Source of the DNA: an uncultured Bacteroidia bacterium
GTDB taxonomy: Bacteria > Bacteroidota > Bacteroidia > JAIBAJ01
NCBI GenBank assembly: GCA_965284645.1
Contig: OZ260106.1
Span: forward strand, 2,328,962-2,392,961
Direction of reading: 5' to 3'
DNA: 64,000 bases
The stretch's first letter is position 1. Each line of letters opens with the position of its first letter. The position numbers and the translations under genes are program-made. Of the stretch, positions 1-39,565 are shown piece after piece. Below the pieces are notes generated by a model. That model saw only the letters and a program-made list of their open reading frames with translations, ran no database searches and was not told the DNA's origin.

Positions 1-90
1 CTGCAAGTCCTCGGTATGCTCCGTGCCTACGCATCCCTGTGGGCTTTACGCTTCTATCCTTGCCCGATACCTGTTTACCTGGGTTTGGGT
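1..90 (-). repeat. Family-1 structured intergenic repeat, copy A (truncated by window start, reverse orientation)
   Basis: Near-identical to 39185-39283 and to the reverse complement of 18830-18900 (core 'gggcaaggatagag...cccacagggatgcgtaggcacggagca...ccgaggact'). Confidence 0.8.
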
Positions 91-124
91 GAAATTTACA
101 CCTTGGGATTTTTAACCTAAATTC

Positions 125-200
125 CGCATTAGAATGGCATAAGTGATTAACCAGTTGTAAATCAATTTTGTTTTACCAATTATGCATTGGTTAGTTGATG
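125..200 (+). repeat. Family-2 repeat, partial copy (5' hairpin module)
   Basis: 'cgcattagaa...gattaaccagttgtaaatcaattt' matches 9636-9690 and 35867-35890. Confidence 0.6.
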
Positions 201-320
201 CTATTCAAGTAATAGGTATTTGAAAATTCAATAATATGGGTGAAAAATGGTCTTTGTATTTCAATTTGCCACTATGGGATGAAAAGCAATGGCCCAGCTA
301 CAGTAGAATGTTATGCGGAG

Positions 321-483
321 GTGTCGGGCAAGGATAGAGCGTGATACCCCGCAAGCTTGCAGCCCCCGGGCATTTTCGGGGGCTGCAAGCTGAGGAGTAT
401 TAGCGAAAGCCTGACCCAACCGCCCTGGTAAATGGTTTATTCAAACGCAAATGGTTTTTGGCGGTTGGGGGCCCGCCAAATCT
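321..483 (+). repeat. Family-1 repeat, copy B (variant internal segment, conserved ends and 3' hairpin)
   Basis: 5' 'gggcaaggatagag' and 3' 'agcgaaagcctgacccaaccgccc...tttttggcggttgggggcccgccaaa' are shared with the other copies; the middle is replaced by a different perfect hairpin 'gcagcccccgggcattttcgggggctgc'. Confidence 0.75.
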
Positions 484-581
484 AAATTTTACAAGGTAAA
501 TTACTTGTCCTATAGCTACTTAAAATATCTTGAAGGCTCTTGGTTTTACAAGCAATCCAAAATGCTATGGATAATTTTAGC

Positions 582-1704: not shown

Positions 1705-4700
1705 TTATTGTGCGTTTAAATAGGTTACTTGAATGGCGTAGAAATTGTATAATTCGATGGCTGCTAAATAATTAAGTTTGATTTCAAGGGCTTGTTTTTG
1801 TAAGCTTGCCCAATCCAAATAATTTATTTCACCGGCGCTCAGTTGTTTTTGAGAAAGCAAAAGGATTTGTTCGGCATCCAAGCTTTGGTGTTCCTCTAGG
1901 TAACTCAGTTGTTCCTGGCAAAGCTTAAGTTGGTTACTTGCCAATTTTAGTTTGTTTTTCAAATAGGCTTTTTCCCATGATTCTTTGTTTTGGGCTATTT
2001 TTAGCTTAGTTTCCAAGGCTTTGGTATAGGCCTTGTTTGCCCCAAAAAACAAGGGAACCCCAAGTCCGATTTGATAGGATGTAAACCTGTTTTTTGAGGT
2101 ATATAAATTATTGTCAGGCCCAATTCCTCTGAAACTTTGGTTAGTTATCCCCAAATTTATGGATGGCAATTGCTGAGATTTCTGCAATAAAACCTTCGAT
2201 TTAGCTAAATCTATCTCCTTCTCTAACCTTTCTTGAAAGGGATGCGCTCCGTTTTTTGAAAGGGAATCAGCTAAAAATTTAATTCCTTTGAAACGGGGCA
2301 CAAGTCTTTTCTGACAATTGATGAGTAACTGAAAGCCTAACAAGCAATTTTCTTTATCCAGTTGAAGCTGTTGTTTTTGAAGATGCAAGTTGCCAACAAA
2401 TAGGTCGGCATAGGATTTTTCCAACGCATTGCTTTCCCCTTTTTCAAACCGCAATTGAGCTTTTTGTGCAAATTCCTTCGCAATACTGTCGGTTTTTTCC
2501 AAAACATTTTCCTTTTCTATCAAAACCAAATACCTGAAAAATTGTTCTTCTACAAGCCTTGTCAGTTCCAAATCGTTCAATTGTTTAGCTAACTGCAATA
2601 ATTGACTTTCTTGGGTTAGGACTAGCTTTTGCCGGGTATAGATCATTGGCAAACTGAATCCTTGGCTAAGTGTCAATCGGCTGTCAGGGAAAACGCTGTT
2701 TATATTTCCACCTTCGAACGAAAGGGAGGTTGAATTTGGATTGAAGGCCGTTTTTTCTAAACTTTTTTGGTATTCTTGTTCTAAACTTTGGTTTCTGCTG
2801 CTCCAATGGTTTTTTAATGCCGAATCAATACTGCTTTTTAAGTCGATTGTTTGGGATTTGGCGTTTAAGCTAAAACCAAGGAAAAGGATGGCCATAGCCA
2901 ATGAGGAGGGGTTCAACTTTCGAGGCTCTAGACGATCAAGTAAAATATAAAGAATAGGCAATACAAACAAGGTAAGAAAGGTTGCTAAAAGCAAGCCTCC
3001 AATTACAACAGTTGCCAAGGGCCTTTGCACTTCTGCGCCTGAACCATTGCTCATGGCCATGGGTAAAAAACCTAAGGATGCAACAAATGCTGTCATTAAA
3101 ACTGGCCTTAACCTCAACTTGGTTCCAATAAGAATAATGCGATAAATATTGGAGTGTCCTAGTTGTTTCAATCGATTGAATTCAGAAATCAAAACAATAC
3201 CATTCAGAACAGCCACCCCGAACAAAGCAATAAAGCCAACACCAGCGCTAATACTAAAAGGCATTCCACGCAAGGCAAGAAAGAAAATCCCACCAATGGC
3301 AGATAACGGAATCGCTGAATAAATCAATAAACCTTGTTTGACTGAATTAAAAGCAAAAAACAAAAGAATAAACACCAGCAACAAGGATATTGGCACAGCA
3401 ATGGAAAGTCGTTTCTTGGCCTCATTTAGGTTCTCAAAAGTGCCTCCATAACGAATGAAATATCCTGGAGGGAGTTTGATTTCTTTTTCAACCTTGGCTT
3501 GTAGTTCTTCAACTACGGTCTGAACATCTTTTTTCCTCACATTAAAACCTACAACTATTCTTCGTTTGGTGTCTTCTCTTTGGATTTGATTTGGGCCATT
3601 GATTGTTTCCACTTTGGCCAATTGTTGCAAAGGGATTTGGGTGCCGTTTGAAGCTTGTATCAAAAGGTTTTTAATGTTTTGGGCATCCATTCGCAAATTG
3701 GGTGAAAGTCGAGCTACCATATCAAATCTTTTTTCCCCTTCATTCACCGTGCCTGCACTTTGTCCGGCAAAGGCAGTATTTACGATTTTATTTACCTCCG
3801 AAATGGATAAATTGTATTGGGCTAAAACGGCCCTATTGTATTGAATTACAACCTGTGGCATTCCATTGATGGGCTCCAAATACAGGTCTTGGGTTCCTTC
3901 AACGGTTTCGATGGTCTTGGCTAATTTTGTTCCAAGGGCGGCCAAGCTATCCAAGTTCTCTCCAAATATTTTACAAACAACATCTTGTCGGGCTCCAGTC
4001 ATTAGTTCGTTGAATCGCATTTGAACAGGATATTGAAATCCTGTTGTTATTCCTGGGACTTCCTCCAAAGCCGCACTCATTTTTTCTGCCAGTTCATTAA
4101 AGGTCGATGCAGAGGTCCATTCGCTTTTATCCTTTAAAATTACCATTAAATCGGCTGCTTCCAAAGGCATTGGGTCTGTAGGAATTTCGCCACTTCCAAT
4201 TTTAGTCACAACCTTTTCTACTTCCGGAAACTTGGTCTTTAAAATACCGGCTGCTTTTTGGGTATAGGCAATGGATGTGGAAAGGCTGCTGCCAGTTAGC
4301 AAACGGGTTTCTACAGCAAAATCGCCTTCTTCCAATGCGGGAATAAATTCTCCTCCCATATTGAATAGAATACCTAGGCTTATTGCAAACAAAACAAGTA
4401 CAGTTGCCACAACCCATTTTAGCCGATGCAAGGATTTTAGCAAGGCCATTTGGTACCATTTTTCAATTTTAGCCATCATTTTGTCTGAAAAAGTTGGTTC
4501 ATGCTTGATTTTCTTGCTTAAAACTAAGGAGGTCATCATTGGTACATAGGTCAAGCTTAGGATAAAGGCACCAATAAGAGCGAACGAAACGGTTTGAGCC
4601 ATGGGTTTGAACATTTTACCCTCGATCCCACTTAAACTTAAAATAGGCAAATAGACAATCAAAATAATAACCTGTCCAAAAACGGCACTGTTCATCATTT

Positions 4701-6039
4701 TGCTTGCACTTTTATTGACTTGGCTATCCATTTCAGGTTGGTTTAATTGTGTTTGGAAACCAATTTTGGGGCTATTTGAAATTTGGTGCATGGCCGCCTC
4801 CACAATAATAACAGCTCCATCCACGATTAATCCAAAATCTAAGGCTCCCAAGCTCATTAGGTTTCCGCTTACCTTAAACAGATTCATCAAGATAATAGCA
4901 AACAACATGGCTAAAGGAATAACCGAGGCCACAACCAAACCGGCTCTAAAATTTCCTAAAAACAAAACCAATATAAATACCACAATTAACGCTCCTTCTA
5001 GAAGGTTTTTTTCAACAGTAGATATGGCATTGTTTACCATTTTGGATCGATCTAAAAATGGTTCGATTATCACCCCTTGAGGTAATGTTTTTTGAATATT
5101 GGTTATTTCTTTTTTTACTCGTTTGATTACCTCTGAACTATTTTCTCCTTTTAGCATCATCACAACAGCACCAGCTACTTCGCCTTCGTCGTTATAACAT
5201 AAAGCGCCATAACGGATAGCATGTGAAATATTCACTTGGGCTACATCCCTTATTCGAATAGGAATTCCATTGGGTGTGTTTTGTATGTTTATTTCTTCGA
5301 TATCGGTTTTGGAGGTCAATAATCCTTCGGTTCGGATAAACAACACCGAAGGCCCTTGTTCAATATAAGCTCCTCCTGTATTTTGGTTATTGTTTTCGAG
5401 GGCATTGAAAACATCCGATATGCTTAAGCCAAAGGCATGCAAATTGTTAGGGTTAATGGCAATTTCATATTGTTTGAGTTTGCCACCAAAACTGCTTACA
5501 TCAGCCACTCCTTTTACATTTAACAGTTGTCTCCTTACAATCCAATCCTGAATGGTTCGTAGTTCAGTTTCGTTGTATTTTGATTCATAACCTTTCTTTG
5601 GTCTTATTACATATTGGTAAATTTCCCCTAACCCTGTTGTAATAGGCCCCAGTTCGGGCTTCCCAATGCTTGCAGGTATTTGCGATTGTATCTGTCCCAA
5701 TCTTTCCGATACTTGTTGCCTTGCCCAAAACACATCTGTATGATCATCAAATACAATGGTTACTAGAGAAAGACCAAATCGAGAAAAACTCCTTATTTCA
5801 GTTTTGCCGGGAATATTGCTAACTGCTTGTTCAATTGGATAGGTAACAAGCCGTTCAATATCAGGGGCTCCATAAGATGGTGCCATGGTGATGATTTGTA
5901 CCTGATTGTTAGTAATATCTGGAACGGCATCAATTGGAAGCCTATATGCTTCGAACAGACCATATATGACCAAGGCAAAAGTCAAAAGGCCTACAATGAG
6001 TTTTTGGCGGATGGAAAACGCTATAATGGAATTCAACAT
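1705..6039 (-). CDS. CzcA/CusA-family heavy-metal efflux RND permease (about 1048 aa) fused in frame to a TolC/CzcC-like outer-membrane factor (396 aa)
   Basis: N-terminus is a typical CzcA ('AVPDITNNQVQI...'). The C-terminal 396 aa are OMF-like and begin with a signal-peptide-like 'MAILFLGFSLNAKSQ' at an internal ATG (2893-2895). No stop codon lies between the two parts. Confidence 0.8.
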   Translation of the reverse strand: MLNSIIAFSIRQKLIVGLLTFALVIYGLFEAYRLPIDAVPDITNNQVQIITMAPSYGAPDIERLVTYPIEQAVSNIPGKTEIRSFSRFGLSLVTIVFDDHTDVFWARQQVSERLGQIQSQIPASIGKPELGPITTGLGEIYQYVIRPKKGYESKYNETELRTIQDWIVRRQLLNVKGVADVSSFGGKLKQYEIAINPNNLHAFGLSISDVFNALENNNQNTGGAYIEQGPSVLFIRTEGLLTSKTDIEEINIQNTPNGIPIRIRDVAQVNISHAIRYGALCYNDEGEVAGAVVMMLKGENSSEVIKRVKKEITNIQKTLPQGVIIEPFLDRSKMVNNAISTVEKNLLEGALIVVFILVLFLGNFRAGLVVASVIPLAMLFAIILMNLFKVSGNLMSLGALDFGLIVDGAVIIVEAAMHQISNSPKIGFQTQLNQPEMDSQVNKSASKMMNSAVFGQVIILIVYLPILSLSGIEGKMFKPMAQTVSFALIGAFILSLTYVPMMTSLVLSKKIKHEPTFSDKMMAKIEKWYQMALLKSLHRLKWVVATVLVLFAISLGILFNMGGEFIPALEEGDFAVETRLLTGSSLSTSIAYTQKAAGILKTKFPEVEKVVTKIGSGEIPTDPMPLEAADLMVILKDKSEWTSASTFNELAEKMSAALEEVPGITTGFQYPVQMRFNELMTGARQDVVCKIFGENLDSLAALGTKLAKTIETVEGTQDLYLEPINGMPQVVIQYNRAVLAQYNLSISEVNKIVNTAFAGQSAGTVNEGEKRFDMVARLSPNLRMDAQNIKNLLIQASNGTQIPLQQLAKVETINGPNQIQREDTKRRIVVGFNVRKKDVQTVVEELQAKVEKEIKLPPGYFIRYGGTFENLNEAKKRLSIAVPISLLLVFILLFFAFNSVKQGLLIYSAIPLSAIGGIFFLALRGMPFSISAGVGFIALFGVAVLNGIVLISEFNRLKQLGHSNIYRIILIGTKLRLRPVLMTAFVASLGFLPMAMSNGSGAEVQRPLATVVIGGLLLATFLTLFVLPILYILLDRLEPRKLNPSSLAMAILFLGFSLNAKSQTIDLKSSIDSALKNHWSSRNQSLEQEYQKSLEKTAFNPNSTSLSFEGGNINSVFPDSRLTLSQGFSLPMIYTRQKLVLTQESQLLQLAKQLNDLELTRLVEEQFFRYLVLIEKENVLEKTDSIAKEFAQKAQLRFEKGESNALEKSYADLFVGNLHLQKQQLQLDKENCLLGFQLLINCQKRLVPRFKGIKFLADSLSKNGAHPFQERLEKEIDLAKSKVLLQKSQQLPSINLGITNQSFRGIGPDNNLYTSKNRFTSYQIGLGVPLFFGANKAYTKALETKLKIAQNKESWEKAYLKNKLKLASNQLKLCQEQLSYLEEHQSLDAEQILLLSQKQLSAGEINYLDWASLQKQALEIKLNYLAAIELYNFYAIQVTYLNAQ

Positions 6040-6295
6040 GACATAAAGTTTTAAAAGTGAGCAATAGCCCTAGTAAATTCAATAAGGCAAGGAGTGGTTT
6101 ACTCTAAGGCAAAAGATGATTTTTATCCGAACAGCTTGATTTAGTTGAGTTTACCTCACCCTAATGAAATTTAGGATAGAAATTGTAGGGCTTTTTTTCG
6201 GTTTAACAACCAAGGCAAGAGGCCAACAGTGAAAAGTTTTATCCTAGTTGCAATCGAATGAAAGCAAAGGAATAAATAGTCCAATTATTCCACTT

Positions 6296-6420
6296 AACCT
6301 AAATTAATTAATAGAAAGATTGATTAATCTGAACTACTAAATTAAGTTGGGTTAACCCCTCCCAAAACATTTTAGGAAAGCAGTTATAATCAATATTGTT
6401 TGGAAATCGATTATAACTGC
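6296..6420 (-). repeat. Family-2 repeat, reverse copy with a perfect 12-bp-stem hairpin
   Basis: 'aaattaattaatagaaagattgattaatctgaactactaaattaagttgggttaacccc' is the reverse complement of the 9715-9773 module. Hairpin 'gcagttataatc...gattataactgc' at 6380-6420. Confidence 0.7.
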
Positions 6421-6577
6421 TTTATTCGTTTAGGCATTTCTAAAGCATAAACTGGGCTATAGCACCATAGTATAAATTATGCAGACTTCCTCAGTTAGGA
6501 AAACTATTCAGTCTATGCCAATTGAACTAATTGGGGGTTGCTCTAAATATCAGCTTACAATTATCTTCGGAATTTAC

Positions 6578-9490: not shown

Positions 9491-9635
9491 CAGAACAGTT
9501 ACAAACGTAAATCAATGGATGCAAAGAAACAGGTTAGTTTTGAATAAAAGAGGTTTAGTCGCTATTCATCCGGTTTCAGCTTTCTAGGAAGGTTAATTTC
9601 TGTTGTGAATAAACTTTTGAAACAAACCCAGATTA

Positions 9636-9773
9636 CGCATTAGAAATACATAAACGATTAACCAGTTGTAAATCAATTTGTATGGCCAAATTGATAACAA
9701 CTGCTAAATCGGGGTAAACCCAACTAAATCAAGTAGTTCGGTTTAGTAAATCCTCCTATTGATTAATTTGGGA
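9636..9773 (+). repeat. Family-2 repeat, full copy (two imperfect hairpins)
   Basis: Hairpin 1 'cagttgtaaatcaattt/aaattgataacaactg'. Hairpin 2 'cccaactaaatcaag...ctattgattaatttggg'. Matches 35867-35993. Confidence 0.75.
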
Positions 9774-9804
9774 TAAAAAAAACCGGGACAATAACTTATC
9801 CCGG
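9774..9804 (-). terminator. Rho-independent terminator candidate for the minus-strand operon ending at 10038
   Basis: GC stem 'ccggga-caataactt-atcccgg' followed on the minus-strand RNA by a U-run (plus strand 'aaaaaaaa' at 9774-9782). Confidence 0.5.
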
Positions 9805-10037
9805 TTGATCACATGGTCTATTTTCTAGAACCATATTAGTTTCGGACAGTTTTTCAGTTTCCCCTCTGTATAATGCTGCTCCGAAATTCTCTTTAAATCC
9901 TTATTACAATTGAACCTGGGTGGTTGGAATTTTAGTTTCCCCAGAATTTGTTGGTCCACTAATCACCTTAAAGTACCTAACATCTAAAATTCCATTCACT
10001 ATTTCTAGTAGAATTTCCACCCGAGTTCAATTGTTTT

Positions 10038-12696: not shown

Positions 12697-12829
12697 CCCT
12701 ACAAAAGTAGAATTATTTTCTCCTAAATTGCCTTAGAATTTGGGTCATTTTTTCATTTATTCTTCAAATATTTTGCTTTTTTGTCTGATCAAATGCTTCC
12801 TATCTGCCCCATCATTTAACTATTTTTCT

Positions 12830-13000
12830 TTATTTGGTGGGCCCCCTCCGCCCATTTACCTTTGGATATATTTTACCATTCTACCTGGGGCGTTCGGGTC
12901 AGGCTTTCGGCGGTAGTCCTCGGTCCGCTTCGTTGCCCTACGCGTCCCTGTGGGCTACACTGCCTCTATCCTTGCCCTGGGCCGTTGTACCTGGCTTTGG
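12830..13000 (-). repeat. Family-1 repeat, copy C (reverse orientation, divergent variant)
   Basis: Reverse complement aligns to copies D/F/G with clustered substitutions in the middle segment. 3' hairpin 'aaatgggcggagggggcccaccaaa'. Confidence 0.8.
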
Positions 13001-18684: not shown

Positions 18685-18829
18685 ATCGGCGCGAAGATAA
18701 TAAACTTAACCCCAAAATAGTGAAGTGCCAGGAGGAGCTATTATGCTTCAGTTGTTTTTATTCACCCCATCTACCATTTTTGGATAAATCTTCACTGGTT
18801 TTATTTCACCAAATACTAGATCGGAGGTG

Positions 18830-18985
18830 TCCGGGCAAGGATAGAGGCAGTCTAGCCCACAGGGATGCGGAGGCACGGAGCAGACCGAGGACTAGCGCCG
18901 AAAGCCTGACCCAATCGCCCTTGCAGACTATTTTGTTTTCAGTAGACAGTGGTTTTGGCGATTGGGGGCCCGCCACATAAAAAAA
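18830..18985 (+). repeat. Family-1 repeat, copy D (forward)
   Basis: Core plus 3' hairpin 'ttttggcgattgggggcccgccaca' plus A-run. Lies in the divergent intergenic region. Confidence 0.85.
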
Positions 18986-19020
18986 GAAAGCATAAATGGG
19001 AAAAGCTAATAAATTGTGAA

Positions 19021-23799: not shown

Positions 23800-23984
23800 A
23801 AAACAGTGTATTAATCGTTTGATTTATAATTCTTTGGTTTGTAAATATAGTAAAAGAATGCTTGCCAAAAAGGTTGAAATGGAAATGGGGGGGAGAGAAG
23901 GTGTTTCATTTTTAGGCGTGCCCCCTTTCGCCCTAAACCATTTGCTCGTAATTTAAACATTTTACAAAGGGCTTCAGGGTCGGG

Positions 23985-24085
23985 CTATACACTGCAAGTC
24001 CTCGCGCCCGTTCGCTTTCGCTCCGTTCAGCTGTGGGCTTTCCGTTCCTATCCCTGCCCGGAAACCTCCGAACCTGGCAGTCTGC
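23985..24085 (-). repeat. Family-1 repeat, degenerate copy E (reverse), followed by a degenerate family-2 5' module
   Basis: 'ctgcaagtcctcg...ctgtgggctttcc...ctatccctgcccg' parallels copy A. 24086-24110 'ttgaaatcaattt' resembles the family-2 start. Confidence 0.5.
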
Positions 24086-24228
24086 GTTGAAATCAATTTC
24101 GTATTCCAAACTTAATCATTTATTAACATTTCAAGTGTTTGGGATTGTGGAAAACCTTGGCTTGCCTATGAAACTAAAGCTCAGATAAGTCGTTTACATT
24201 TATGAACTGTTTTACCTAAACCTAAAGA

Positions 24229-26924: not shown

Positions 26925-27126
26925 AGAGATCAATTTGAACGTAGTTGGTCTCCGAATAGCCTAATAAAAGAAAAGAAGTTGATTTAATAGGTGAAATATG
27001 CATTTTTAAAGACGAATAATTTGTTTTTGTAGAAAATCCTATAAAAAGGATTGTTGTTGAGCCTTTCCTTTGATATTTCAAACAATATTTATCTTTTCTT
27101 TGTTTTTAGAAACAGATACGCAATTT

Positions 27127-27849
27127 ATGAAAATAGGCTTGGCCCAAATTCAGCCCAAGAGTGGAGATATAAACCATAATTTAAAGCTGCACTTGGATTA
27201 TTTGCGTTTAGCAGATGAGAATGGGGCTGATTTAGTCTGTTTTCCTGAACTTTCCCTTTCAGGGTATGCACCTCATTTAGCCCATCAACAAGTTTCAAAT
27301 ACATTGGATAGTCTATGGGATTCCTTTCAATTGTTTTGCAATAGAACCGGAATTGTAGCCTGTATTGGTATGCCTTCCTCCGGATTGCTAAAACCTCGAA
27401 TTTCAATGTTTGTGGTTCAGCCTCATACCCCAATTCAAATATATTCCAAGCAAAAGATACACCAAGACGAACAGCCTTATTTCGAAGAGGGTGATACGGA
27501 TTTGCTTTTGGATTGGGGAAAGGAGAAAATTGTACCCGCCATTTGTTACGAATCCTTGCATGAAGACCATGCCAAACGTGCCAAGGCCAGTGGCGCTACT
27601 ATTTATTTGGCCAGTGTGGCAAAATCAGCCGGTGGATTAGAAAAAGCCCAAAAGTATTATCCTAAAATGGCGGCTGATTTGGGATTAAAGGTGGGAATGG
27701 TTAATAGTTTCGGACCACAGTCTGATTTTCATAGTGTTGGTCAATCCGCCATTTGGAATGCCGATGGAACTGCACTTGGAAACCTAAGTGCTGATCAAGA
27801 AGGACTCCTCATTTGGGATGTGGAAAGTGCTACCTTTAAGGCGGTTTAA
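27127..27849 (+). CDS. Carbon-nitrogen hydrolase family (nitrilase/amidase-like)
   Basis: 'MKIGLAQIQP...LVCFPELSLSGY' and an 'AICYE' catalytic Cys context. First ATG is at 27127. Confidence 0.8.
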   Translation: MKIGLAQIQPKSGDINHNLKLHLDYLRLADENGADLVCFPELSLSGYAPHLAHQQVSNTLDSLWDSFQLFCNRTGIVACIGMPSSGLLKPRISMFVVQPHTPIQIYSKQKIHQDEQPYFEEGDTDLLLDWGKEKIVPAICYESLHEDHAKRAKASGATIYLASVAKSAGGLEKAQKYYPKMAADLGLKVGMVNSFGPQSDFHSVGQSAIWNADGTALGNLSADQEGLLIWDVESATFKAV

Positions 27850-27900
27850 ACTATTTTGCCTTGCCCTACTTTCCTTCAAGATTTAAATGCCTTAGCAACC

Positions 27901-28470
27901 ATGAATAATTCTTATTTAACTAGTATCCGCAAACAGTTTGATTACTATAAAATGCTAGGTGATAAAACCATGAACAAACTTTCCGATGAACAACTTTTTT
28001 GGCAAGCTAATTCGGAGAGCAATAGTATAGCTACCTTGGTTTACCACCTAAGCGGAAACATGCTATCACGTTGGACCGATTTTCTAAATTCCGATGGGGA
28101 AAAGGAATGGCGAAATCGGGATGCAGAATTTGAAAATGAATCACAATCCCGCCAACAGCTTTTGAATCGGTGGGAAGAAGGATGGCGTTGCTTTTTTGCT
28201 GCACTTGAATCACTAACCGAATCAGATTTAGAACGCCTAGTTTATATTCGAAACCAAGGCCATACCGTTCTAGAAGCTATCAATAGGCAATTGGCCCATT
28301 ATCCTTACCACATCGGTCAAATGGTTTTTTTGGGTAAATTGCTTTGTGGTCCCAATTGGGAAAGTTTGTCTATTCCCAAAGGCAATTCTTCTACCTATAA
28401 CCAAGAGAAATTCTCAAAGCCCCAAGAAAAGGGCCATTTTACGGATGATTTTTTAGGAAAAAAGGAATAA
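27901..28470 (+). CDS. DinB/YfiT-like (DUF1572-type) four-helix-bundle protein
   Basis: 'LVYHLSGNMLSRW' and 'HYPYHIGQMVFLGK' His-containing helices typical of the DinB superfamily. Confidence 0.55.
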   Translation: MNNSYLTSIRKQFDYYKMLGDKTMNKLSDEQLFWQANSESNSIATLVYHLSGNMLSRWTDFLNSDGEKEWRNRDAEFENESQSRQQLLNRWEEGWRCFFAALESLTESDLERLVYIRNQGHTVLEAINRQLAHYPYHIGQMVFLGKLLCGPNWESLSIPKGNSSTYNQEKFSKPQEKGHFTDDFLGKKE

Positions 28471-28573
28471 GGTAATTGTTTGTGTATCAAATGTTCTAGT
28501 CTTTTTATCGTACTAGTTTATTCTTTCTAGAAGGTAAAGAATTCCTACCTTTGATTCCCTATTCAAATATCTC

Positions 28574-29368
28574 ATGCAGCTTAAATCTCTTGCCATTTTT
28601 TATTTAGGTTTTATCTTGTTTTTGGGCTCTGTTTTTGTTCAGTCATGCGACCGTAGAAACGATGGTGCTAAGGAAGAACAGGTCGCTCTCAGTCCAGAAG
28701 ATGAAACTTCCATAAATGATAGCCTTGGGAATCAGCTAACCAATAGGATGCTTATGAACGATACTTCAACTTATCCGAACAGGGTCATCCTTACCGGTTT
28801 AGCTCAACATCGATTGGTGAGTATTTATAAACGAATCAAACATAAAGATAATCGCTCAGGTTCTTTCTATAGTCCATCAGAAGGTGGATACTCCGAAGAG
28901 AACAACGAACATTTCATGCCCGGAATTGATGTATTATATGGATTCAACTTGGTCAATATTTCCCACTACGACTTCCAAACCGAAAAGCAAAACCTCTTGT
29001 TCAAAAGACCTGTTTTGATAAAGTCCTTATATTACCCTTCCTTTGTTCAAGATTCCATTGACAATAAGCCTGTAAACCGGGATTTTTACCTGGTTTCAGT
29101 TTATGATGAAGATACCAATAAAGACACTTTGCTGAACCGTAAAGACCTCCGACATTTTTATTGGTTTGATGCATCTGGGGCGCAAAGTTTGAGTTTGCTT
29201 CCACCTGATTTCTCGGTGCTCCGTTCGGATTATGACCCTAGTAATGATGTGATGTATCTCTTTGCCAAACAAGACAAAAACAAGAATGGAATGGTCGAAA
29301 GCAATGAACCTATTCATTTGTTTTGGATAAGTCTCAAAAGGCCTGAAAAAGCTAAATTGGTGTATTGA
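28574..29368 (+). CDS. Hypothetical lipoprotein
   Basis: Signal peptide and lipobox 'VFVQSC'; no recognisable domain. Confidence 0.5.
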   Translation: MQLKSLAIFYLGFILFLGSVFVQSCDRRNDGAKEEQVALSPEDETSINDSLGNQLTNRMLMNDTSTYPNRVILTGLAQHRLVSIYKRIKHKDNRSGSFYSPSEGGYSEENNEHFMPGIDVLYGFNLVNISHYDFQTEKQNLLFKRPVLIKSLYYPSFVQDSIDNKPVNRDFYLVSVYDEDTNKDTLLNRKDLRHFYWFDASGAQSLSLLPPDFSVLRSDYDPSNDVMYLFAKQDKNKNGMVESNEPIHLFWISLKRPEKAKLVY

Positions 29369-29389
29369 ATTTAAAACCGTTTTTTAGGC

Positions 29390-29881
29390 ATGGAATTATC
29401 AGTTGCACTTAGGTTAAAAAAGAAAATAACAACATTTACCCTTCTCTTTATAACCGGCTTGGTGTTGAGTGGTTTAACCGCCTTTCCAATCGAAACCCTA
29501 TTGGCCTTTGGTGCTCAGCATATTTCAAATTTTCCACCTGCCTTTCAAGCATGGTATTTAAAGGTGTATGAGGGCGTTCGGATTACGAACCTAGCCTATC
29601 CTTTTTTGGCATACGGAACCGATTGGTTGGCCTTTGCACATTTGGTGATTGCTGTAGTATTTTTTGGACCGCTTAAAGATCCTGTCCGAAATAAATGGGT
29701 GTACCAATTTGGAATGATTGCATGCTTTATGGTTTTTCCTTTGGCATTTGTTTGTGGACCAATTCGAGGAATACCTTTCTATTGGACATTGATCGATTGT
29801 TCGTTTGGAGTGTTCGGTTTTGTTCCACTTTATTTGTGTTATAAATGGACAAATGAATTGGAAAGTATTGCTAATCAATAG
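29390..29881 (+). CDS. Hypothetical membrane protein
   Basis: Four hydrophobic helices. Confidence 0.45.
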   Translation: MELSVALRLKKKITTFTLLFITGLVLSGLTAFPIETLLAFGAQHISNFPPAFQAWYLKVYEGVRITNLAYPFLAYGTDWLAFAHLVIAVVFFGPLKDPVRNKWVYQFGMIACFMVFPLAFVCGPIRGIPFYWTLIDCSFGVFGFVPLYLCYKWTNELESIANQ

Positions 29882-29977
29882 GTAAATAAAACAAACAGGC
29901 TATTTTTAAAGTTAAGGATTATTTACTGCTAGTTTGTATCTTAAAGAAAATACTACATTAGCTGAAATATCCTTTAA

Positions 29978-30388
29978 ATGGCTAATTTTTCCATTGGCAC
30001 CAAAGATGCCCCACTATTACTCAAAACTCCACCTCTAAGTTCGGAATACACCATGCATGTGGAAGCCAAAGATGGCAAGGATGTATTGGTTTGCACCGTT
30101 GGGAAAACCGTTTTGCATTACAATATCCAATGCCTCGACGATTTGCATGCCATGCTAAAAAAACATGGCGATTGGATGGAATTGGGAAGTGCGGATGAGC
30201 AAAAGCCAGCCAAAGAAGGCACAGTTGAGGCTTGGGGCCGCTCTTCCGAAAACCCAGTTGGAGGTTGGTATGGACTTAAAAAAGGCTTGCGAGGCCGTTT
30301 TGGTATGTATATTCCACCCTTGATGGAAGCCTTAGGGTTGGCCGAACTTACTCATGAAGCCAAAGGAAATAAAATGAGGGCAAAATAA
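29978..30388 (+). CDS. Hypothetical protein
   Basis: 136 aa, soluble, no recognisable motif. Confidence 0.4.
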   Translation: MANFSIGTKDAPLLLKTPPLSSEYTMHVEAKDGKDVLVCTVGKTVLHYNIQCLDDLHAMLKKHGDWMELGSADEQKPAKEGTVEAWGRSSENPVGGWYGLKKGLRGRFGMYIPPLMEALGLAELTHEAKGNKMRAK

Positions 30389-30398
30389 AGGTTTCGAT

Positions 30399-30881
30399 TT
30401 GTTTAAATTCAAAGCAGAACTTGCTATCATAGGAGTAAATCCTTATGTGTTTGTCCCTGAACCAATCTTGAACTCCCTTTTCACTTTAGCAGGAAAAAGG
30501 GCAGGTAACATTCCCATACATGGCAAAATAAATGGGAAAGAATTCCAGCAGACACTCGTAAAATATAATGGTTTTTGGCGACTTTATGTCAATACCAATA
30601 TGCTCAAGAATTCTCCGAAACGTATAGGAGAAGAAGTTGACTTTGAAATACATTTTGATCCTTCTGATCGTTCCATTCCTATGCCCGAACAACTCCAGCT
30701 TGCACTTGATCTTCACCCGGATGCCAAGGCCGTTTTTTTAGCGCTTTCCCCTTCACGTAAGAATGAAATTGTACGGTATATTGCTCGTTTGAAATCGCCT
30801 GAAATACTCGAGAAAAATATTAATCGGGCTATTTCTTTTTTGCAAGGAAAGGAAAGGTTTGTGGGGCGAGAAAAGCCTTGA
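30399..30881 (+). CDS. YdeI/OmpD-associated family protein (DUF1905 plus YdeI domain)
   Basis: 'YVFVPEPILNSL...HGKINGKEFQQTLVKYNGFWRLYV' (DUF1905), then 'SPSRKNEIVRYIARLKSPE'. Confidence 0.6.
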   Translation: MFKFKAELAIIGVNPYVFVPEPILNSLFTLAGKRAGNIPIHGKINGKEFQQTLVKYNGFWRLYVNTNMLKNSPKRIGEEVDFEIHFDPSDRSIPMPEQLQLALDLHPDAKAVFLALSPSRKNEIVRYIARLKSPEILEKNINRAISFLQGKERFVGREKP

Positions 30882-31028
30882 TTGTTTATGTTTTTTTATT
30901 GGAATTTTGGCGCAAAAAAAGTTATTAACCTTTTATATAGCGATATAGAACTGATTTAATTTTGTCTCAGATTCAATTCTTAATCTAGTTAAAATCAGTT
31001 TAATTTTTTCATTTTAAATCGTATTCAA

Positions 31029-32972
31029 ATGGGTGCTTTTTTCATGTATGCTTGGATTATATTGCTTGTGCTTTTAATCGTTTTATATAAATATGTTCTC
31101 CGTTTCTTTCTTGGGATGGTTATTGTTCCGGAAGACCGCTTGGGCCTTGTAACTAAGAAATTCGTGTTGTTTGGGCCAAACAAGGAACTTCCAGGTGGAC
31201 GAATTATTGCAACCAATGGGGAAGCAGGTTTTCAGGCCAGTACTTTAGCCCCTGGTTTGTATTTCGGAATGTGGTTTTGGCAATACGAAATTACTATGGA
31301 GCAATTCACCATTATTCCGGAAGGTAAAATAGGTTTAGTCCTAGCGAAGGATGGTACAGAAATTCCAACTGGTAATATCCTTGGTCAAAGGGTCGATTGC
31401 GATAATTTTCAAGATGCAGATAAGTTCCTTAAAAATGGAGGTCAGCGAGGTCGACAAACAGCCTACATAACCGCTGGATCGTATCGTATAAATACCATGC
31501 TTTTCCAAGTTTCCATTACCGATATGGTTCGTATCCAAGAAAGTAGGGTAGGTATTGTTACCACCTTGGATGGTATGCCTATTGAACAAGGACAAATCGC
31601 CGGTAAATTGGTGGAAGGACATAACAATTTTCAGGACTTCGATGCCTTTATCAAAAATGGTGGTAACCGAGGATTACAACCCCAAGTAATCTTGGCTGGT
31701 TCCTATAACCTAAATCCTTGGGCCATCCAAATTGAAGAAACCCCAATGACTGAAATTCCAATTGGATATGTGGGTGTGGTTATATCCTTTGTAGGTAAAG
31801 ATGGAGCTGATTTAACGGGCAAGGAATTTACACATGGAAATATTGTTGAGCGTGGCACTAAAGGCGTTTGGATGGAACCGCTTGGGCCGGGAAAATACCC
31901 CATCAACAAGTATACGATGAAGGTGGAACTGGTGCCTACAACCAACTTGGTGCTTAACTGGGCATCCGCTAGAAGTGAGGCGCACAACTTGGATAAAAAT
32001 CTATCAACAATTACGGTTCGATCTAAGGACGGTTTCCCTTTCAACCTCGATGTAGCGCAAATTATCCATGTGCCTTCTATCGAAGCGCCAAAAGTTATTG
32101 CAAGGTTTGGAAATATGGTCAACTTGGTATCCCAAGTATTAGAACCAACCATTGGAAACTATTTCCGAAATTCAGCACAAGACAGTGATGTGATTGCCTT
32201 TTTAAGCACAAGGAAGGAAAGACAGGATTCGGCCAAAGCCCATATCAAAAAGGTGTTGGATGAATACAATGTGAATGCAGTGGATACTTTGATTGGAGAT
32301 ATCGTTCCTCCTGAAACCTTGATGAAAACGCTTACAGACCGTAAAATTGCCGAAGAACAAAAAGTAACTTACGATACCCAGAAAAAGGCTCAAGAAACTC
32401 GTCAGGGAATGGAGAAAGAAACTGCCATCGCTGATATGCAAAAGGATATTGTACGGGCCCAACAAAGTGTTGAAATAGCTGAACGCACAGCCAATGCAAC
32501 AGTAAAGAAAGCAGAAGGGGATGCGGCAAGTGTTAAACTAGCCGTTAGTGCCGAAGCCGAATCAACTAAAATGAGAGCACACGCCGAAGCTGAATCTACA
32601 AAATTGAGAGCCGAAGCTGAATCACAGGCTATTAAAATGAAAGCCTCTGCCGAAGCTGAGAAAATAACTTTGACCGGTAATGCTGAAGCCTCCAAAATTT
32701 CAGCCATAGGTAAATCAAATGCCCAAGCTTATGAACTCGCCGTTAGTGCCTTAGGTGGTGAGAACTTTACTCGTTTTAAAATTACAGAAGAATTATCCAA
32801 AGGGAAAATTAAACTAATTCCTGATGTTTTAATTGGAGGTTCGGGCTCTAATGGAAATGCTATGGAAGGCTTGCTAGGACTGAAATTGATGGAAATGATG
32901 GATCCAAATTCAAAAGTTCAAAAAACAGAAACAGAAGATACTCAACCTACTAATAACCCAAGTGAACAGTAA
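31029..32972 (+). CDS. Flotillin/SPFH (band-7) family membrane protein
   Basis: N-terminal transmembrane helix, a PHB domain, and a long Ala/Glu-rich C-terminal region with repeated 'AEAES(T/Q)K(M/L)RA' heptads. Confidence 0.8.
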   Translation: MGAFFMYAWIILLVLLIVLYKYVLRFFLGMVIVPEDRLGLVTKKFVLFGPNKELPGGRIIATNGEAGFQASTLAPGLYFGMWFWQYEITMEQFTIIPEGKIGLVLAKDGTEIPTGNILGQRVDCDNFQDADKFLKNGGQRGRQTAYITAGSYRINTMLFQVSITDMVRIQESRVGIVTTLDGMPIEQGQIAGKLVEGHNNFQDFDAFIKNGGNRGLQPQVILAGSYNLNPWAIQIEETPMTEIPIGYVGVVISFVGKDGADLTGKEFTHGNIVERGTKGVWMEPLGPGKYPINKYTMKVELVPTTNLVLNWASARSEAHNLDKNLSTITVRSKDGFPFNLDVAQIIHVPSIEAPKVIARFGNMVNLVSQVLEPTIGNYFRNSAQDSDVIAFLSTRKERQDSAKAHIKKVLDEYNVNAVDTLIGDIVPPETLMKTLTDRKIAEEQKVTYDTQKKAQETRQGMEKETAIADMQKDIVRAQQSVEIAERTANATVKKAEGDAASVKLAVSAEAESTKMRAHAEAESTKLRAEAESQAIKMKASAEAEKITLTGNAEASKISAIGKSNAQAYELAVSALGGENFTRFKITEELSKGKIKLIPDVLIGGSGSNGNAMEGLLGLKLMEMMDPNSKVQKTETEDTQPTNNPSEQ

Positions 32973-33441
32973 GCAAAGTTTTCTTCCTGCCCATTCTATC
33001 CAGGTTGCTCCTACTTCGGAAATCACAACCACCCGCGACTTCTCTTTCTCCTTGTCAAGGTTATATCTAGCATGGTCGGATCCTAGGTTGCTTGAAAAAT
33101 GGTGGGGACCCAACGGTTTCACGAACACCTTCCATGTTTTTGACCTCCAACCTGGAGGGAAATGGAGTTTTATTATGCATGGACCAAATGGTTCAAACTA
33201 TCCGAATGAATGTGTGTTTTTGGAAGTTGAACCACTCCAACGACTGGTTTGGAACCATTTCCCTGAACCAGAATTCCAAGTGGAAGTATTGTTTAAAGCC
33301 CTTTCGGAAAGCCAATCGCAGGTAGTATTTAAAATGAAGTTTTTATCCAAAGAACGCTGTCGTCAATTGCGTGCATTTATAAGCGAAAAAAACGAGGAAA
33401 ATATGGATAAACTACAAAAAGTAATGAGTGAAATGCCTTAA
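32962..33441 (+). CDS. SRPBCC/AHSA1-like domain protein (second copy)
   Basis: 'LLEKWWGPNGFTNTFHVFDLQPGGKWSFIMHGPNGSNYPNE'. Confidence 0.6.
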   Translation: MNSKQSFLPAHSIQVAPTSEITTTRDFSFSLSRLYLAWSDPRLLEKWWGPNGFTNTFHVFDLQPGGKWSFIMHGPNGSNYPNECVFLEVEPLQRLVWNHFPEPEFQVEVLFKALSESQSQVVFKMKFLSKERCRQLRAFISEKNEENMDKLQKVMSEMP

Positions 33442-33788
33442 TAAGCAACAATTATGGACGTTCATCCCAACAGTTTTTTAGCTAATAAGGGAAGAATACT
33501 TTTGAGTATATTTTTTTATTTCAAGTTATTTTATAGTTGGATTTTTTAATCCTTACGGCACTATTTGTCCATTCGGTAAATTTTACAATTTGCCCAAAGA
33601 AATTGAATTGCCACTTTTGAATCGCCAAAGCCTTTCTAATTCAGAATCTGTGTTAAGTAAGCTTTTGTAAACGTAGTTTAACATTTGGATTTTCCTTTTA
33701 AGGTTTAATTTGTCGCCTAATAAAAAGCTAAAAAAAAATTAAGTAACCGCCTTGTTTCCTAAAACGCACCATAAATCAAATTTTTGAA

Positions 33789-35829: not shown

Positions 35830-35866
35830 CTATTCAATAATTTTCTGACAAGGTTAGTTGAACCCA

Positions 35867-35993
35867 AACCAGTTGTAAATCAATTTATTTTTCCAAATGG
35901 ATAACAATTGCTATCCCTAAATTTCTTCGGGAGGGGTAAACCCAACTAAATCAAGTAGTTCGGATTATTAAATCCTCCTATTGATTAATTTGG
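35867..35993 (+). repeat. Family-2 repeat copy, immediately upstream of family-1 copy F
   Basis: Aligns to 9661-9773. Confidence 0.75.
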
Positions 35994-36021
35994 GTTTAAC
36001 CAACACCCAGGTTCGGAGGTT

Positions 36022-36180
36022 CTCGGGCAAGGATAGAGGCAGTCTAGCCCACAGGGATGCGTAGGCACGGAGCAGACCGAGGACTAGCGCCGAAAGCCTG
36101 ACCCGAACGCCCCTTGTACCCCGGTTTATTTTGGCACCGCTGTTTTTGGGCGGAGGGGGCACGCCAAATAAAAAAAAAAA
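36022..36180 (+). repeat. Family-1 repeat, copy F (forward)
   Basis: Core identical to D/G; 3' hairpin 'tttttgggcggagggggcacgccaaa' plus A12. Confidence 0.85.
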
Positions 36181-39073: not shown

Positions 39074-39109
39074 GTTTTGAAAATGTTTTTTTGTCTGTAA
39101 ATGGGTGTT

Positions 39110-39283
39110 TTTTATTTGGCGGGCCCCCAACCGCCAAAACCAGTTTAACCTTTGAATTTTTCAGTCTGCAAGGGCGGTTGGGTCAGGCTTTCGGCGCTAG
39201 TCCTCGGTCTGCTCCGTGCCTACGCATCCCTGTGGGCTAGACTGCCTCTATCCTTGCCCGAAACCGAAGTACCTGGCTTTTGT
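39110..39283 (-). repeat. Family-1 repeat, copy G (reverse)
   Basis: Reverse complement is more than 95% identical to D/F across the core; 5' hairpin 'tttggcgggcccccaaccgccaaaa'. Confidence 0.85.
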
Positions 39284-39565
39284 GCTTTATTTAGGCAGTT
39301 GTTAGTAATCTCGAAATTGTTATTGAAACAAAGAAAACAAGTTACAAGGAATGTGGTTAGATTCTTGTTAAGTCCAAGTTTGTGCAAGTTTGGATTTTAA
39401 TCAAAATTTACTTAAAAACCTTATTTGGCCTTGTATTAAACCTAGTTCAAAATTTCTATGGATAATTTGGGGTTAATTCAGTCAATAGTTTAATTTGAAT
39501 GCGGTTTTAATCCATCCTTCAGTAATGCAACCTAAAAGCTAAGCGACATTCCTTCTGATTTGGAC

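What the first reader, a model, noticed from the sequence alone, without database searches (positions are those of the whole stretch)
9636..9773. Family-2: a second dispersed element of about 130 bp built from two imperfect hairpins
- **Copies.** 9636-9773 (+), 35867-35993 (+), 6296-6420 (-, with a perfect 12-bp-stem hairpin), a partial at 125-200, and a degenerate one at about 24086-24180.
- **Module 1.** Stem 'cagttgtaaatcaattt' / 'aaattgataacaactg' (16 bp with one mismatch) around an 8-nt loop.
- **Module 2.** 'ggggtaaa CCCAACTAAATCAAGTAG ...20 nt... CTATTGATTAATTTGGG', where the capitalised arms are near-complementary.
- It has no sequence similarity to family-1.
Basis: seen in the sequence. 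Interest (0 to 1): 0.55.

Follow-up and report, generated by a model that had tools for sequence, protein, structure and literature searches.

The report
TTAA-flanked hairpin MITE family in Bacteroidota
The repeat is real: it is a small non-coding mobile element of about 150-180 bp (a MITE) with short inverted ends and TTAA on both flanks, scattered between genes of an uncultured Bacteroidota bacterium and its relatives, so it is an ordinary kind of selfish DNA from a family that seems not to have been described.

Summary
The finding holds and is larger than described. Family-2 is a modular element of about 150-180 bp.

The window holds three near-complete copies (9626-9773 +, 35861-35995 +, 6297-6458 -). 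It also holds three degenerate or partial ones (116-179 +, 6112-6202 -, about 33511-33659 -). The claimed copy at 24086-24180 is not supported.

The family also occurs at unrelated intergenic loci: a MAG labelled Sediminibacterium and 18 metagenome contigs, at 70-99% identity. Contigs often break at it. No transposase or consistent neighbour gene is present.

Related genomes lack copies A, C and F at the orthologous sites, with a single TTAA at C's site. A 98%-identical strain carries a family-2 right end at a TTAA that is empty in the window.

M0 and M1 show strong compensatory changes. There is no Rfam, plasmid or phage match.

Best reading: a MITE moved in trans. An IS1380/piggyBac-like transposase is an untested lead, because the ends resemble those of ISEcp1. 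It is a new member of a known kind, of moderate-low interest.

The parts
9626..9773 (+). Copy A, full length. It comprises the 5' end ACCCAGATTA, M0 hairpin (about 9633-9654), M1 long hairpin (9655-9711, core stem 9663-9703), M2 long hairpin (9717-9773) and the 3' end TAATTTGGGA. The flanks are degenerate TTAA (ACAA / TAAA). It sits directly after the terminator of the upstream minus-strand gene.
   Evidence: Model R1 scores 161.7 bits. It is 98% identical to the copy in L007 and 95% to L001. It is absent from the orthologous spacer of L026 and L028.
35861..35995 (+). Copy B. The 5' end AACCCAAA is joined directly to M1 (the M0 hairpin is deleted). It also has the optional GC hairpin TCCCTAAATTTCTTCGGGA, M2 and the 3' end GGGT, followed by TTAA (35996-35999). 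It abuts a family-1 copy (35995-36180).
   Evidence: 106.3 bits. A 98% strain (L022) has the same copy plus a 72-76 nt TTAA-bounded insertion at its 3' end.
6297..6458 (-). Copy C, full length and divergent. It has M0, M1 with a perfect 14-bp stem, the optional GC hairpin and M2.
   Evidence: Model R1 scores 113 bits. It is absent from L026, L027 and L028, which have a single TTAA at the corresponding point (GGTTCTAT TTTAA GGAATC).
6112..6202 (-). Copy F, degenerate. It starts ACCG immediately after TTAA (6203-6206). It has the optional GC hairpin and the 5' half of M2, but no M0 or M1, and its 3' arm has decayed.
   Evidence: blastn E 5e-13; nhmmer E 1.2e-6; exact match to the 25-nt core pattern. 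The whole stretch is absent from L026-L028.
116..179 (+). Copy D, truncated. TTAA (112-115) is followed by CCTAAATTCCGC, then M0 and the 5' arm of M1. It lies between two inverted family-1 copies.
   Evidence: nhmmer E 5e-11; R1 28.1 bits. It is also present at the orthologous place in the roughly 82%-identical relative L026, so it is an old insertion.
33511..33659 (-). Copy E, strongly degenerate. M0 and M1 are recognisable at 33584-33657.
   Evidence: blastn 64% over 157 nt, E 2e-10; nhmmer E 2.7e-5. The covariance model does not find it.
33328..33333 (+). An unoccupied TTAA-containing target (TTTAAA) inside the AHSA1-like ORF. In the 98% strain L022 a family-2 right end (CTATTGACAATTTTGGGTT) is joined exactly here.
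39436..39477 (+). A possible ends-only remnant: TTAA ACCTAGTT...CTATGGATAATTTGGGGT TAA. Its status is uncertain.
   Evidence: The end motif matches with 1 mismatch. The M2 right arm matches at 15/19. It was not found by nhmmer or the model.

Best explanation
Family-2 is a miniature inverted-repeat transposable element (MITE): a non-coding, non-autonomous DNA transposon.

**What is shown**
- It carries short terminal inverted repeats, 5'-(A)CCCARATTA ... TAATTTGGG(T)-3'.
- It is usually flanked by TTAA.
- It sits in intergenic DNA, mostly just downstream of stop codons.
- Its internal modules (M0, M1, an optional GC hairpin and M2) are hairpins. They are gained, lost or truncated between copies.
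- The stems of M0 and M1 are kept by compensatory substitutions.

**What is inferred**
- It is cut and pasted, or copied, in trans by a transposase encoded elsewhere in the genome that recognises these ends. The transposase inserts at TTAA and duplicates it.
- The hairpin modules are passengers kept as structure in single-stranded DNA or in read-through RNA.
- The transposase may belong to the IS1380 family, the bacterial relatives of piggyBac. This is a lead only: the first 8 nt of the ends match the ends of ISEcp1 at 7 of 8 positions, and TTAA is the piggyBac target.
For: **Ends and flanks**
- Alignments of 20-23 copies show conserved ends. TTAA lies within 0-1 nt of the 5' CCC in 10 of 19 copies, and of the 3' GGG(T) in 16 of 22.

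**Dispersal**
- The window holds 6 copies and fragments.
- There are 2 copies on one contig of a MAG labelled Sediminibacterium and 18 metagenome loci. None shares flanking sequence with the window.
- Near-identical copies sit at unrelated loci: A against L007 is 98%, and L001 against L016 is 99%. Copies within the window differ by 20-25%.
- Contigs frequently end in or next to the element.

**Presence or absence**
- Copies A, C and F are missing from the orthologous spacers of L026-L028. C's site there holds a single TTAA.
- Strain L022 (98% identical) has a family-2 right end joined to a TTAA that is empty in the window.
- Copy D is shared with L026 and is degenerate, so it is old.

**No function-linked context**
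- Neighbouring genes are unrelated housekeeping genes, and none of 30 scanned proteins is a transposase.
- Orientation relative to the nearest incoming gene is 11 antisense and 7 sense.

**Modularity typical of MITEs**
- Short forms lack M1 (L004, L005, L021).
- M2 occurs alone (L006 8115-8200).
- Copy B lacks M0.

**Resemblance of the ends to IS1380-family ends**
- ISEcp1 IRL is CCTAGATTCTACGT (PMC6061673).
- Its IRR, ACGTGGAATTTAGG, was read in pEK499.
- The family-2 ends are CCCAGATTACGC and CCCAAATTAATC.
Against: - No autonomous element or transposase with these ends was found. The source genome and the wider collections could not be searched again.
- TTAA is a palindrome and could be part of the inverted repeat rather than a duplication. 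The two empty sites come from a 98% strain (one junction only) and from 80%-identical relatives whose spacers have diverged, so no clean filled/empty pair at nucleotide resolution exists.
- The compensatory changes in M0 and M1 are stronger than a purely selfish element needs: 20 pairs changed on both sides against 10.9 +/- 1.8 in shuffles. The reverse-complement strand folds better as RNA in 18 of 19 copies. Both hint at a single-strand function.
- The metagenome copies were ascertained with a pattern inside the M2 left arm, so conservation of that arm is uninformative.
Confidence: 0.72

Rival explanations
1. Family-2 is a multicopy structured non-coding RNA gene or RNA-level cis element, for example a 3'-UTR stabiliser or regulatory sRNA. 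On this reading its hairpins are the functional unit, and its dispersal is secondary.
For: - Compensatory changes in M0 and M1 are strong.
- Folding z-scores are about -5 to -6.
- Many copies lie within 0-50 nt of a stop codon.
Against: - Orientation relative to incoming transcription is mixed, 11 antisense and 7 sense.
- There is no conserved promoter or terminator and no Rfam match.
- Truncated and module-swapped copies are common.
- Copies are present or absent between relatives, and the flanks are TTAA.
- The strand asymmetry is partly inherited from common ancestors, so the copies are not independent observations.
Confidence: 0.1
2. Family-2 is mobilised as single-stranded DNA by a Y1 (HUH) transposase. 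On this reading it is either a REP/BIME-like element served by a RAYT, or an IS200/IS605-derived palindrome-associated element. The hairpins would be the recognition sites.
For: - Several subterminal hairpins are kept by compensatory change.
- There is a folding asymmetry between strands.
- M2 contains a conserved GTAG next to a small hairpin.
Against: - True terminal inverted repeats and TTAA on both flanks are not features of IS200/IS605 elements.
- The unit is 150-180 bp, far longer than a REP.
- The left and right hairpins are unrelated in sequence.
- No Y1 transposase gene was found among the neighbours.
Confidence: 0.08
3. The copies are conserved intergenic regulatory hairpins or terminators of the neighbouring genes, not a mobile family.
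For: They are intergenic and often close to gene 3' ends.
Against: - There are no U-runs. The real terminator next to copy A is a separate hairpin.
- The neighbouring genes are unrelated.
- Near-identical copies sit at unrelated loci.
- The copies are absent from orthologous spacers.
Confidence: 0.02

Closest known systems
Bacterial MITEs such as Correia elements (Neisseria), ERIC (enterobacteria), RUP (Streptococcus pneumoniae) and Nezha (cyanobacteria). The comparison rests on general knowledge.
   Same: - They are non-coding and 100-200 bp long.
- They have terminal inverted repeats.
- They are intergenic and multi-copy.
- They fold into long imperfect hairpins.
- They show presence/absence polymorphism.
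- They often lie next to gene ends.
   Different: - There is no sequence similarity.
- The flanks are TTAA rather than TA.
- Family-2 has three or four separable hairpin modules rather than one long palindrome.
- The host phylum is Bacteroidota.
BOX elements of Streptococcus pneumoniae (modular boxA-boxB-boxC). The comparison rests on general knowledge.
   Same: - The build is modular, with modules that are present, absent or repeated between copies.
- The ends are complementary.
- The mobilising enzyme is unknown.
   Different: - The sequence and host are unrelated.
- Family-2 has defined TTAA flanks.
- Its inverted ends look like insertion-sequence ends.
IS1380-family insertion sequences (for example ISEcp1) and their eukaryotic relatives, the piggyBac transposons.
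   Same: - The ends start CC(Y)ARATT. ISEcp1 IRL is CCTAGATTCTACGT (PMC6061673) and its IRR reverse complement is CCTAAATTCCACGT. Family-2 has CCCAGATTACGC and CCCAAATTAATC.
- The duplication is short and AT-rich. The IS1380 family makes 4-5 bp repeats by general knowledge; 5 bp was seen.
- piggyBac targets TTAA and its ends start CCC. IS1380 transposases are distant prokaryotic relatives of piggyBac (PMC10140906).
   Different: - Family-2 has no transposase gene.
- The similarity is 7 of 8 terminal bases plus ACG after a 2-nt gap, which is a lead and not a test.
- ISEcp1 duplicates 5 bp of variable sequence, not TTAA.
Flavo-1 RNA motif (Rfam RF01705). This applies to family-1, not family-2.
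   Same: The family-1 copy next to family-2 in L001 matches Flavo-1 over the whole model at 30.3 bits, E 0.0027. Flavo-1 hits in Flavobacterium psychrophilum lie in either orientation and often outside transcribed regions (PMC9723704), which is how a repeat behaves.
   Different: The score is below the gathering threshold of 42 bits. The window's own family-1 copy at 35995-36180 gave no Flavo-1 hit. Family-2 itself matches no Rfam family.

Membership tests
MITE (non-autonomous DNA transposon) | Small (under about 300 bp) and non-coding. | tested here: met
   Copies are 110-180 nt, AT-rich and hairpin-forming, lie between called genes, and contain no long ORF.
MITE (non-autonomous DNA transposon) | Terminal inverted repeats. 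| tested here: met
   The ends are 5' (A)CCCARATTA and 3' TAATTTGGG(T). The consensus is 12-14 nt and is conserved across 20+ copies.
MITE (non-autonomous DNA transposon) | Target-site duplication. | tested here: inconclusive
   TTAA flanks most copies. Two empty sites hold one TTAA. However, TTAA is palindromic, and no clean filled/empty pair at nucleotide resolution was obtained.
MITE (non-autonomous DNA transposon) | Many dispersed copies, with insertion polymorphism between relatives. | tested here: met
   The window holds 6 copies. There are 20 loci elsewhere with unrelated flanks. Copies A, C and F are absent in L026-L028, and L022 has an extra insertion end.
MITE (non-autonomous DNA transposon) | A cognate autonomous element with the same ends. 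| not testable with these tools
There is no transposase in the window or next to any copy, and no match in plasmids or phages.
IS1380 / piggyBac-type transposon derivative | Ends of the CC... type and a 4-5 bp AT-rich duplication (TTAA for piggyBac). | tested here: inconclusive
   The ends match ISEcp1 IRL and IRR at 7 of 8 terminal bases, and the flanks are TTAA. The similarity is short and was compared with only one member.
IS1380 / piggyBac-type transposon derivative | Mobilisation by an IS1380-family DDE transposase. | not testable with these tools
   No such gene is available in the held sequences.
REP / BIME | A 20-40 nt palindromic unit with a GTAG head, associated with a RAYT gene. | tested here: not met
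   The unit is 150-180 nt with several unrelated hairpins and true terminal inverted repeats. No Y1 transposase was found among the neighbours.
IS200/IS605-derived palindrome-associated element | No terminal inverted repeats, no duplication, and similar subterminal hairpins at both ends. | tested here: not met
   Inverted ends and TTAA on both flanks are present, and the M0 and M2 hairpins are unrelated.
Any Rfam RNA family | A score at or above the family's gathering threshold. | tested here: not met
   There were no hits at gathering threshold on the window. In E-value mode the best hit on family-2 is a chance hairpin match, Plastid-ccsA-ndhD-2 at 25.6 bits against a threshold of 51.5. Nothing matched the L001 copy.
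Intrinsic terminator | A GC-rich hairpin followed by a U-run. | tested here: not met
   The only such site is 9781-9806 (-), adjacent to copy A but outside it.
Integron attC array | Sites in one orientation at cassette spacing, next to an integrase. | tested here: not met
   Copies lie on both strands, 0.1-26 kb apart, among housekeeping genes.

The most novel reading that the evidence does not exclude
Family-2 may be the non-autonomous partner of a Bacteroidota IS1380-family transposase that shares piggyBac's behaviour. That behaviour would be strict TTAA targeting, and possibly precise excision, given the TTAA-bounded indels between 98%-identical strains. The covarying M0 and M1 hairpins might additionally act as single-stranded DNA or RNA signals. 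This would give a bacterial model for the origin of piggyBac target choice.
Probability: 0.25. Interest if true: 0.5.

Novelty: new member of a known kind. Interest (0 to 1): 0.3.

Why it matters
- **Annotation and assembly.** This repeat, together with family-1, breaks metagenome assemblies of this Bacteroidota lineage. It marks recent rearrangements, including a 6.2-kb deletion between strains. It should be masked or annotated rather than mistaken for an RNA gene or a regulatory site.
- **Biology.** The family is a well-behaved set of copies for studying how hairpin structure is preserved in a selfish element.
- **The IS1380 lead.** If it holds, it links TTAA targeting in bacteria with piggyBac.

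None of this overturns current understanding.

Tried and rejected
**Searches with no match**
- Rfam at gathering threshold and in E-value mode gave nothing for family-2.
- blastn against plasmids and phages gave no match.
- A scan of viral contigs gave 0 hits.
- Literature searches for a described Bacteroidota MITE with TTAA flanks found nothing.

**Analyses that failed or were uninformative**
- RNAalifold on the raw MAFFT alignment failed to find the hairpins because of gaps. I replaced it with a hand-specified structure and a covariance model.
- The source genome could not be retrieved. It is seen only as a 4.43-Mb NCBI contig.
- A second protein search (PdxJ) showed only that the nearest named relatives are about 72% identical. 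The lineage therefore stays 'uncultured Bacteroidota'.

**Ideas considered and dropped**
- L003 (a Neisseriaceae MAG) is a chance match inside a coding region.
- A fixed family-1 plus family-2 composite was rejected, because adjacency occurs in all relative orientations and spacings. Family-1 has neither the inverted ends nor the TTAA flanks.
- A function tied to orientation was not supported (11 against 7).
- The 76-nt L022-specific insert next to copy B is not a repeat in any held sequence.

Full report

Yes. Reading the three main coordinates shows the quoted sequences.

A sensitive self-blastn links 9660-9777 with 35867-35999 (81% with indels, E 1e-27). It links both with 6294-6456 on the minus strand (E about 1e-20) and with 114-179 (E 1e-11).

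A 25-nt degenerate core (AACYCAACTWAATYWAGNNGTTCRG) occurs four times in the window, against 0.00 expected in shuffles. Copy A folds with z = -5.7 on the plus strand and z = -5.1 on the minus strand.

The claimed copy at 24086-24180 is not supported. Its blastn E-value is 0.07, and it has no nhmmer or covariance-model hit.

**2. Anatomy**

Alignments of 20-23 copies from the window and elsewhere give the following layout:
- **Ends.** 5' (TTAA)(A)CCCARATTA and 3' TAATTTGGG(T)(TTAA). The two ends are inverted repeats of each other.
- **M0.** A 9-bp hairpin, ATTACGCAG/CTGCGTAAT in its best form.
- **M1.** A long hairpin whose base is CGATT/AATCG, below CAGTTGT..ACAACTG and ATCAATTTG..CAAATTGAT.
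- **Optional hairpin.** TCCCGAAATTTCTTCGGGA, present in some copies.
- **M2.** AACCCAACTAAATCAAGTAG / CTATTGATTAATTTGGGTT around a small variable tip hairpin.

The modules come apart between copies:
- L004, L005 and L021 have M0 joined directly to M2 (about 125 nt).
- L006 8115-8200 is M2 alone between two TTAA.
- Window copy B keeps the 5' end but has lost M0.
- Copy D is M0 plus half of M1.
- Copy F lacks M0 and M1.

In full-length copies M1 is bracketed by the direct repeat AATCGATTAA ... AATCG(GG)ATTAA. It therefore looks like a secondary insertion or duplication.

**3. Distribution**

The host is a Bacteroidota bacterium. It has T9SS sorting domains and about 39% GC. Its nearest named relatives are only about 72% identical in PdxJ.

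The metagenome scan found 18 loci. Viral contigs, plasmids and phages gave nothing.

None of these loci shares flanking sequence with the window. All copies are intergenic. Their neighbours are unrelated housekeeping genes: tpiA, ispG, fmt, SUI1, response regulators and others. No transposase was found among 30 proteins scanned.

The copies fall into subfamilies with 91-100% identity inside each. Window copy A is 98% identical to L007 and 95% to L001, but only 75-81% to the window's own copies B and C. Many contigs stop in or beside the element: L010, L011, L017, L018 and L019, and the strain contigs L023, L024, L025, L029 and L030. Multi-copy repeats cause exactly this in assemblies.

**4. 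Mobility**

Cluster look-ups of window proteins led to contigs of close relatives.

*L022, L025 and the more distant relatives.*
- L022 and L025 come from one JGI sample and are 98-99% identical to the window. L026-L028 are about 80-91% identical, and L029 and L030 about 88-90%.
- After the shared terminator CCGGG...CCCGGTTTTTTT, the window has the 148-nt copy A. L026 and L028 have an unrelated 30 nt at that position.
- Copies C and F are absent from L026-L028. At C's position they read GGTTCTAT-TTTAA-GGAATC, where the window reads GGTGCTAT-A[GCCC...AGGT]TAAGTGGAAT. This is an empty site with a single TTAA. F begins right after GTTGTTAA.
- Copy D is present in L026 too and is degenerate, so insertions of different ages coexist.

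*Two further differences between L022 and the window.*
- L022 lacks window 27094-33327 (6.2 kb). At the junction it carries 19 nt, CTATTGACAATTTTGGGTT, which match the family-2 right end at 17 of 20 positions when the following T is counted. This fragment is joined to the TTTAAA at window 33328-33333, inside an AHSA1-like ORF. The simplest history is an insertion at that TTAA in the L022 lineage, followed by a deletion running leftwards.
- L022 also has a 72-76 nt insert exactly at the 3' end of copy B, bounded by TTAA on both sides. This insert is not a repeat in any held sequence and remains unexplained.

Across copies, TTAA lies within 0-1 nt of the 5' CCC in 10 of 19 and of the 3' GGG(T) in 16 of 22.

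**5. Structure conservation**

I specified the structure by hand and built a covariance model from it. On that alignment 86.8% of cells are paired, against 80.2% in shuffles and 25-51% when partners are slid. Twenty of 47 pairs show changes on both sides, against 10.9 +/- 1.8 in shuffles (0 of 500 shuffles reach the observed value).

The covariation is in M0 and M1, for example CAGTTGT/ACAACTG, GAATTTGT/ACAAATTC, GATATTGT/ACAATAT and CGATT/AATCG to CGCTT/AAGCG. The M2 arms are almost invariant. However, the left arm was the search pattern, so only the conservation of the right arm is informative.

The reverse complement folds better as RNA in 18 of 19 copies, by 5.4 kcal/mol on average. Much of this is inherited within subfamilies, so it is only a hint that one strand matters as single-stranded nucleic acid.

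Orientation relative to the nearest gene that transcribes into the element is 11 antisense and 7 sense. That gives no clear rule.

**6. Relation to family-1**

Family-1 is a GC-rich element of about 190 nt. Its window copies are at 18800-18995 +, 35995-36180 +, 39108-39260 -, 12820-12977 -, 3-95 -, 316-486 + and 23909-24096 -.

It lies next to family-2 at copies B and D and at the unsupported site G. It is also next to family-2 in L001, L008, L010 and L016, in every relative orientation. It has no inverted ends like family-2 and no TTAA flanks, and it ends in a terminator-like hairpin with an A-run. The two are therefore separate families that share intergenic space, not one composite.

One family-1 copy (L001) matches Rfam Flavo-1 below threshold, at 30.3 bits against a threshold of 42.

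**7. Interpretation**

The following fit a MITE moved in trans by a transposase encoded elsewhere:
- small non-coding size;
- inverted ends;
- TTAA flanks and TTAA at empty sites;
- multi-copy dispersal with young and old copies;
- insertion polymorphism;
- a modular and truncated build;
- lack of any linked gene.

Which transposase does this is inference. The ends CCCAGATTACGC and CCCAAATTAATC resemble the ISEcp1 ends CCTAGATTCTACGT (PMC6061673) and CCTAAATTCCACGT (the reverse complement of the IRR read in pEK499). IS1380 transposases are the prokaryotic relatives of piggyBac (PMC10140906). piggyBac targets TTAA and has CCC ends; that last point is general knowledge. This is a lead, not a test.

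The rivals are less likely for the reasons given under each: an RNA gene family, a Y1-transposase REP or IS200/IS605-type element, and terminators.

**8. Novelty and verdict**

No Rfam family, plasmid or phage record, or searched paper describes this sequence. It is best called a new family of a well-known kind of element. Interest is moderate-low. The points worth a specialist's glance are the TTAA association with IS1380-like ends and the unusually clear compensatory evolution of the passenger hairpins.

Noticed in passing
window 18800-18995 (+), 35995-36180 (+), 39108-39260 (-), 12820-12977 (-), 3-95 (-), 316-486 (+), 23909-24096 (-); also L001 6137-6294, L002, L008, L016, L029: Family-1 is a GC-rich structured repeat of about 190 nt. 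It has a covarying long-range helix (CCCAATCGCC...GGCGATTGGG, changing to CCCAACCGCC...GGCGGTTGGG) and a terminator-like end, GGCGG..CCGCCAAATAAAAAAA. The copy in L001 matches Rfam Flavo-1 over the full model but below threshold (30.3 against 42 bits). Some copies are positionally conserved in a 90% relative (L029).
   Followed up: partly
window 27094-33327 against L022 5727-5745: There is a 6.2-kb presence/absence difference between two 98%-identical strains. It removes eight ORFs and truncates an AHSA1-like gene in L022. A 19-nt family-2 right end sits at the junction.
   Followed up: yes
L022 8416-8491 (corresponds to window 35995/35996): A strain-specific insert of 72-76 nt lies exactly at the 3' end of family-2 copy B. 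It is bounded by TTAA on both sides. It has no inverted repeats and is not repeated in any held sequence. Its origin is unexplained.
   Followed up: partly
window 47647-51525 (-): A 1292-aa protein has a very long collagen triple-helix repeat region (Pfam Collagen, E 1e-87). This region is the 9-nt periodic, 50-56% GC tract that dominates the repeat finder's output. The next gene (51522-53327) is a SprB-repeat protein with a T9SS sorting domain.
   Followed up: partly
window 1705-6039 (-): A single 1444-aa ORF combines a complete AcrB/CzcA-type RND pump (residues 5-1034) with an outer-membrane efflux protein (OEP) domain (residues 1271-1434). The same fusion is called in the relatives L025 and L026.
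   Followed up: no
window 39436-39477: A 42-nt stretch reads TTAA-ACCTAGTT...CTATGGATAATTTGGGGT-TAA. It looks like a family-2 element reduced to its two ends and lies just downstream of a family-1 copy. It was not statistically tested.
   Followed up: no
L004 2907-3024, L005 103-227, L021 1344-1462; L006 8115-8200: Short family-2 variants exist. One form has M0 fused to M2 without M1 (about 125 nt). Another is M2 alone between two TTAA (about 80 nt). In full copies M1 is bracketed by the direct repeat AATCGATTAA / AATCG(GG)ATTAA, which suggests that M1 was acquired secondarily.
   Followed up: partly
L023 (end at 2527), L024 (end at 1196), L025 (start), L029 and L030 (ends equivalent to window 9812): Assemblies of related strains repeatedly break inside or within about 100 nt of family-2 copies A and B. 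This is consistent with a high copy number in those genomes.
   Followed up: partly
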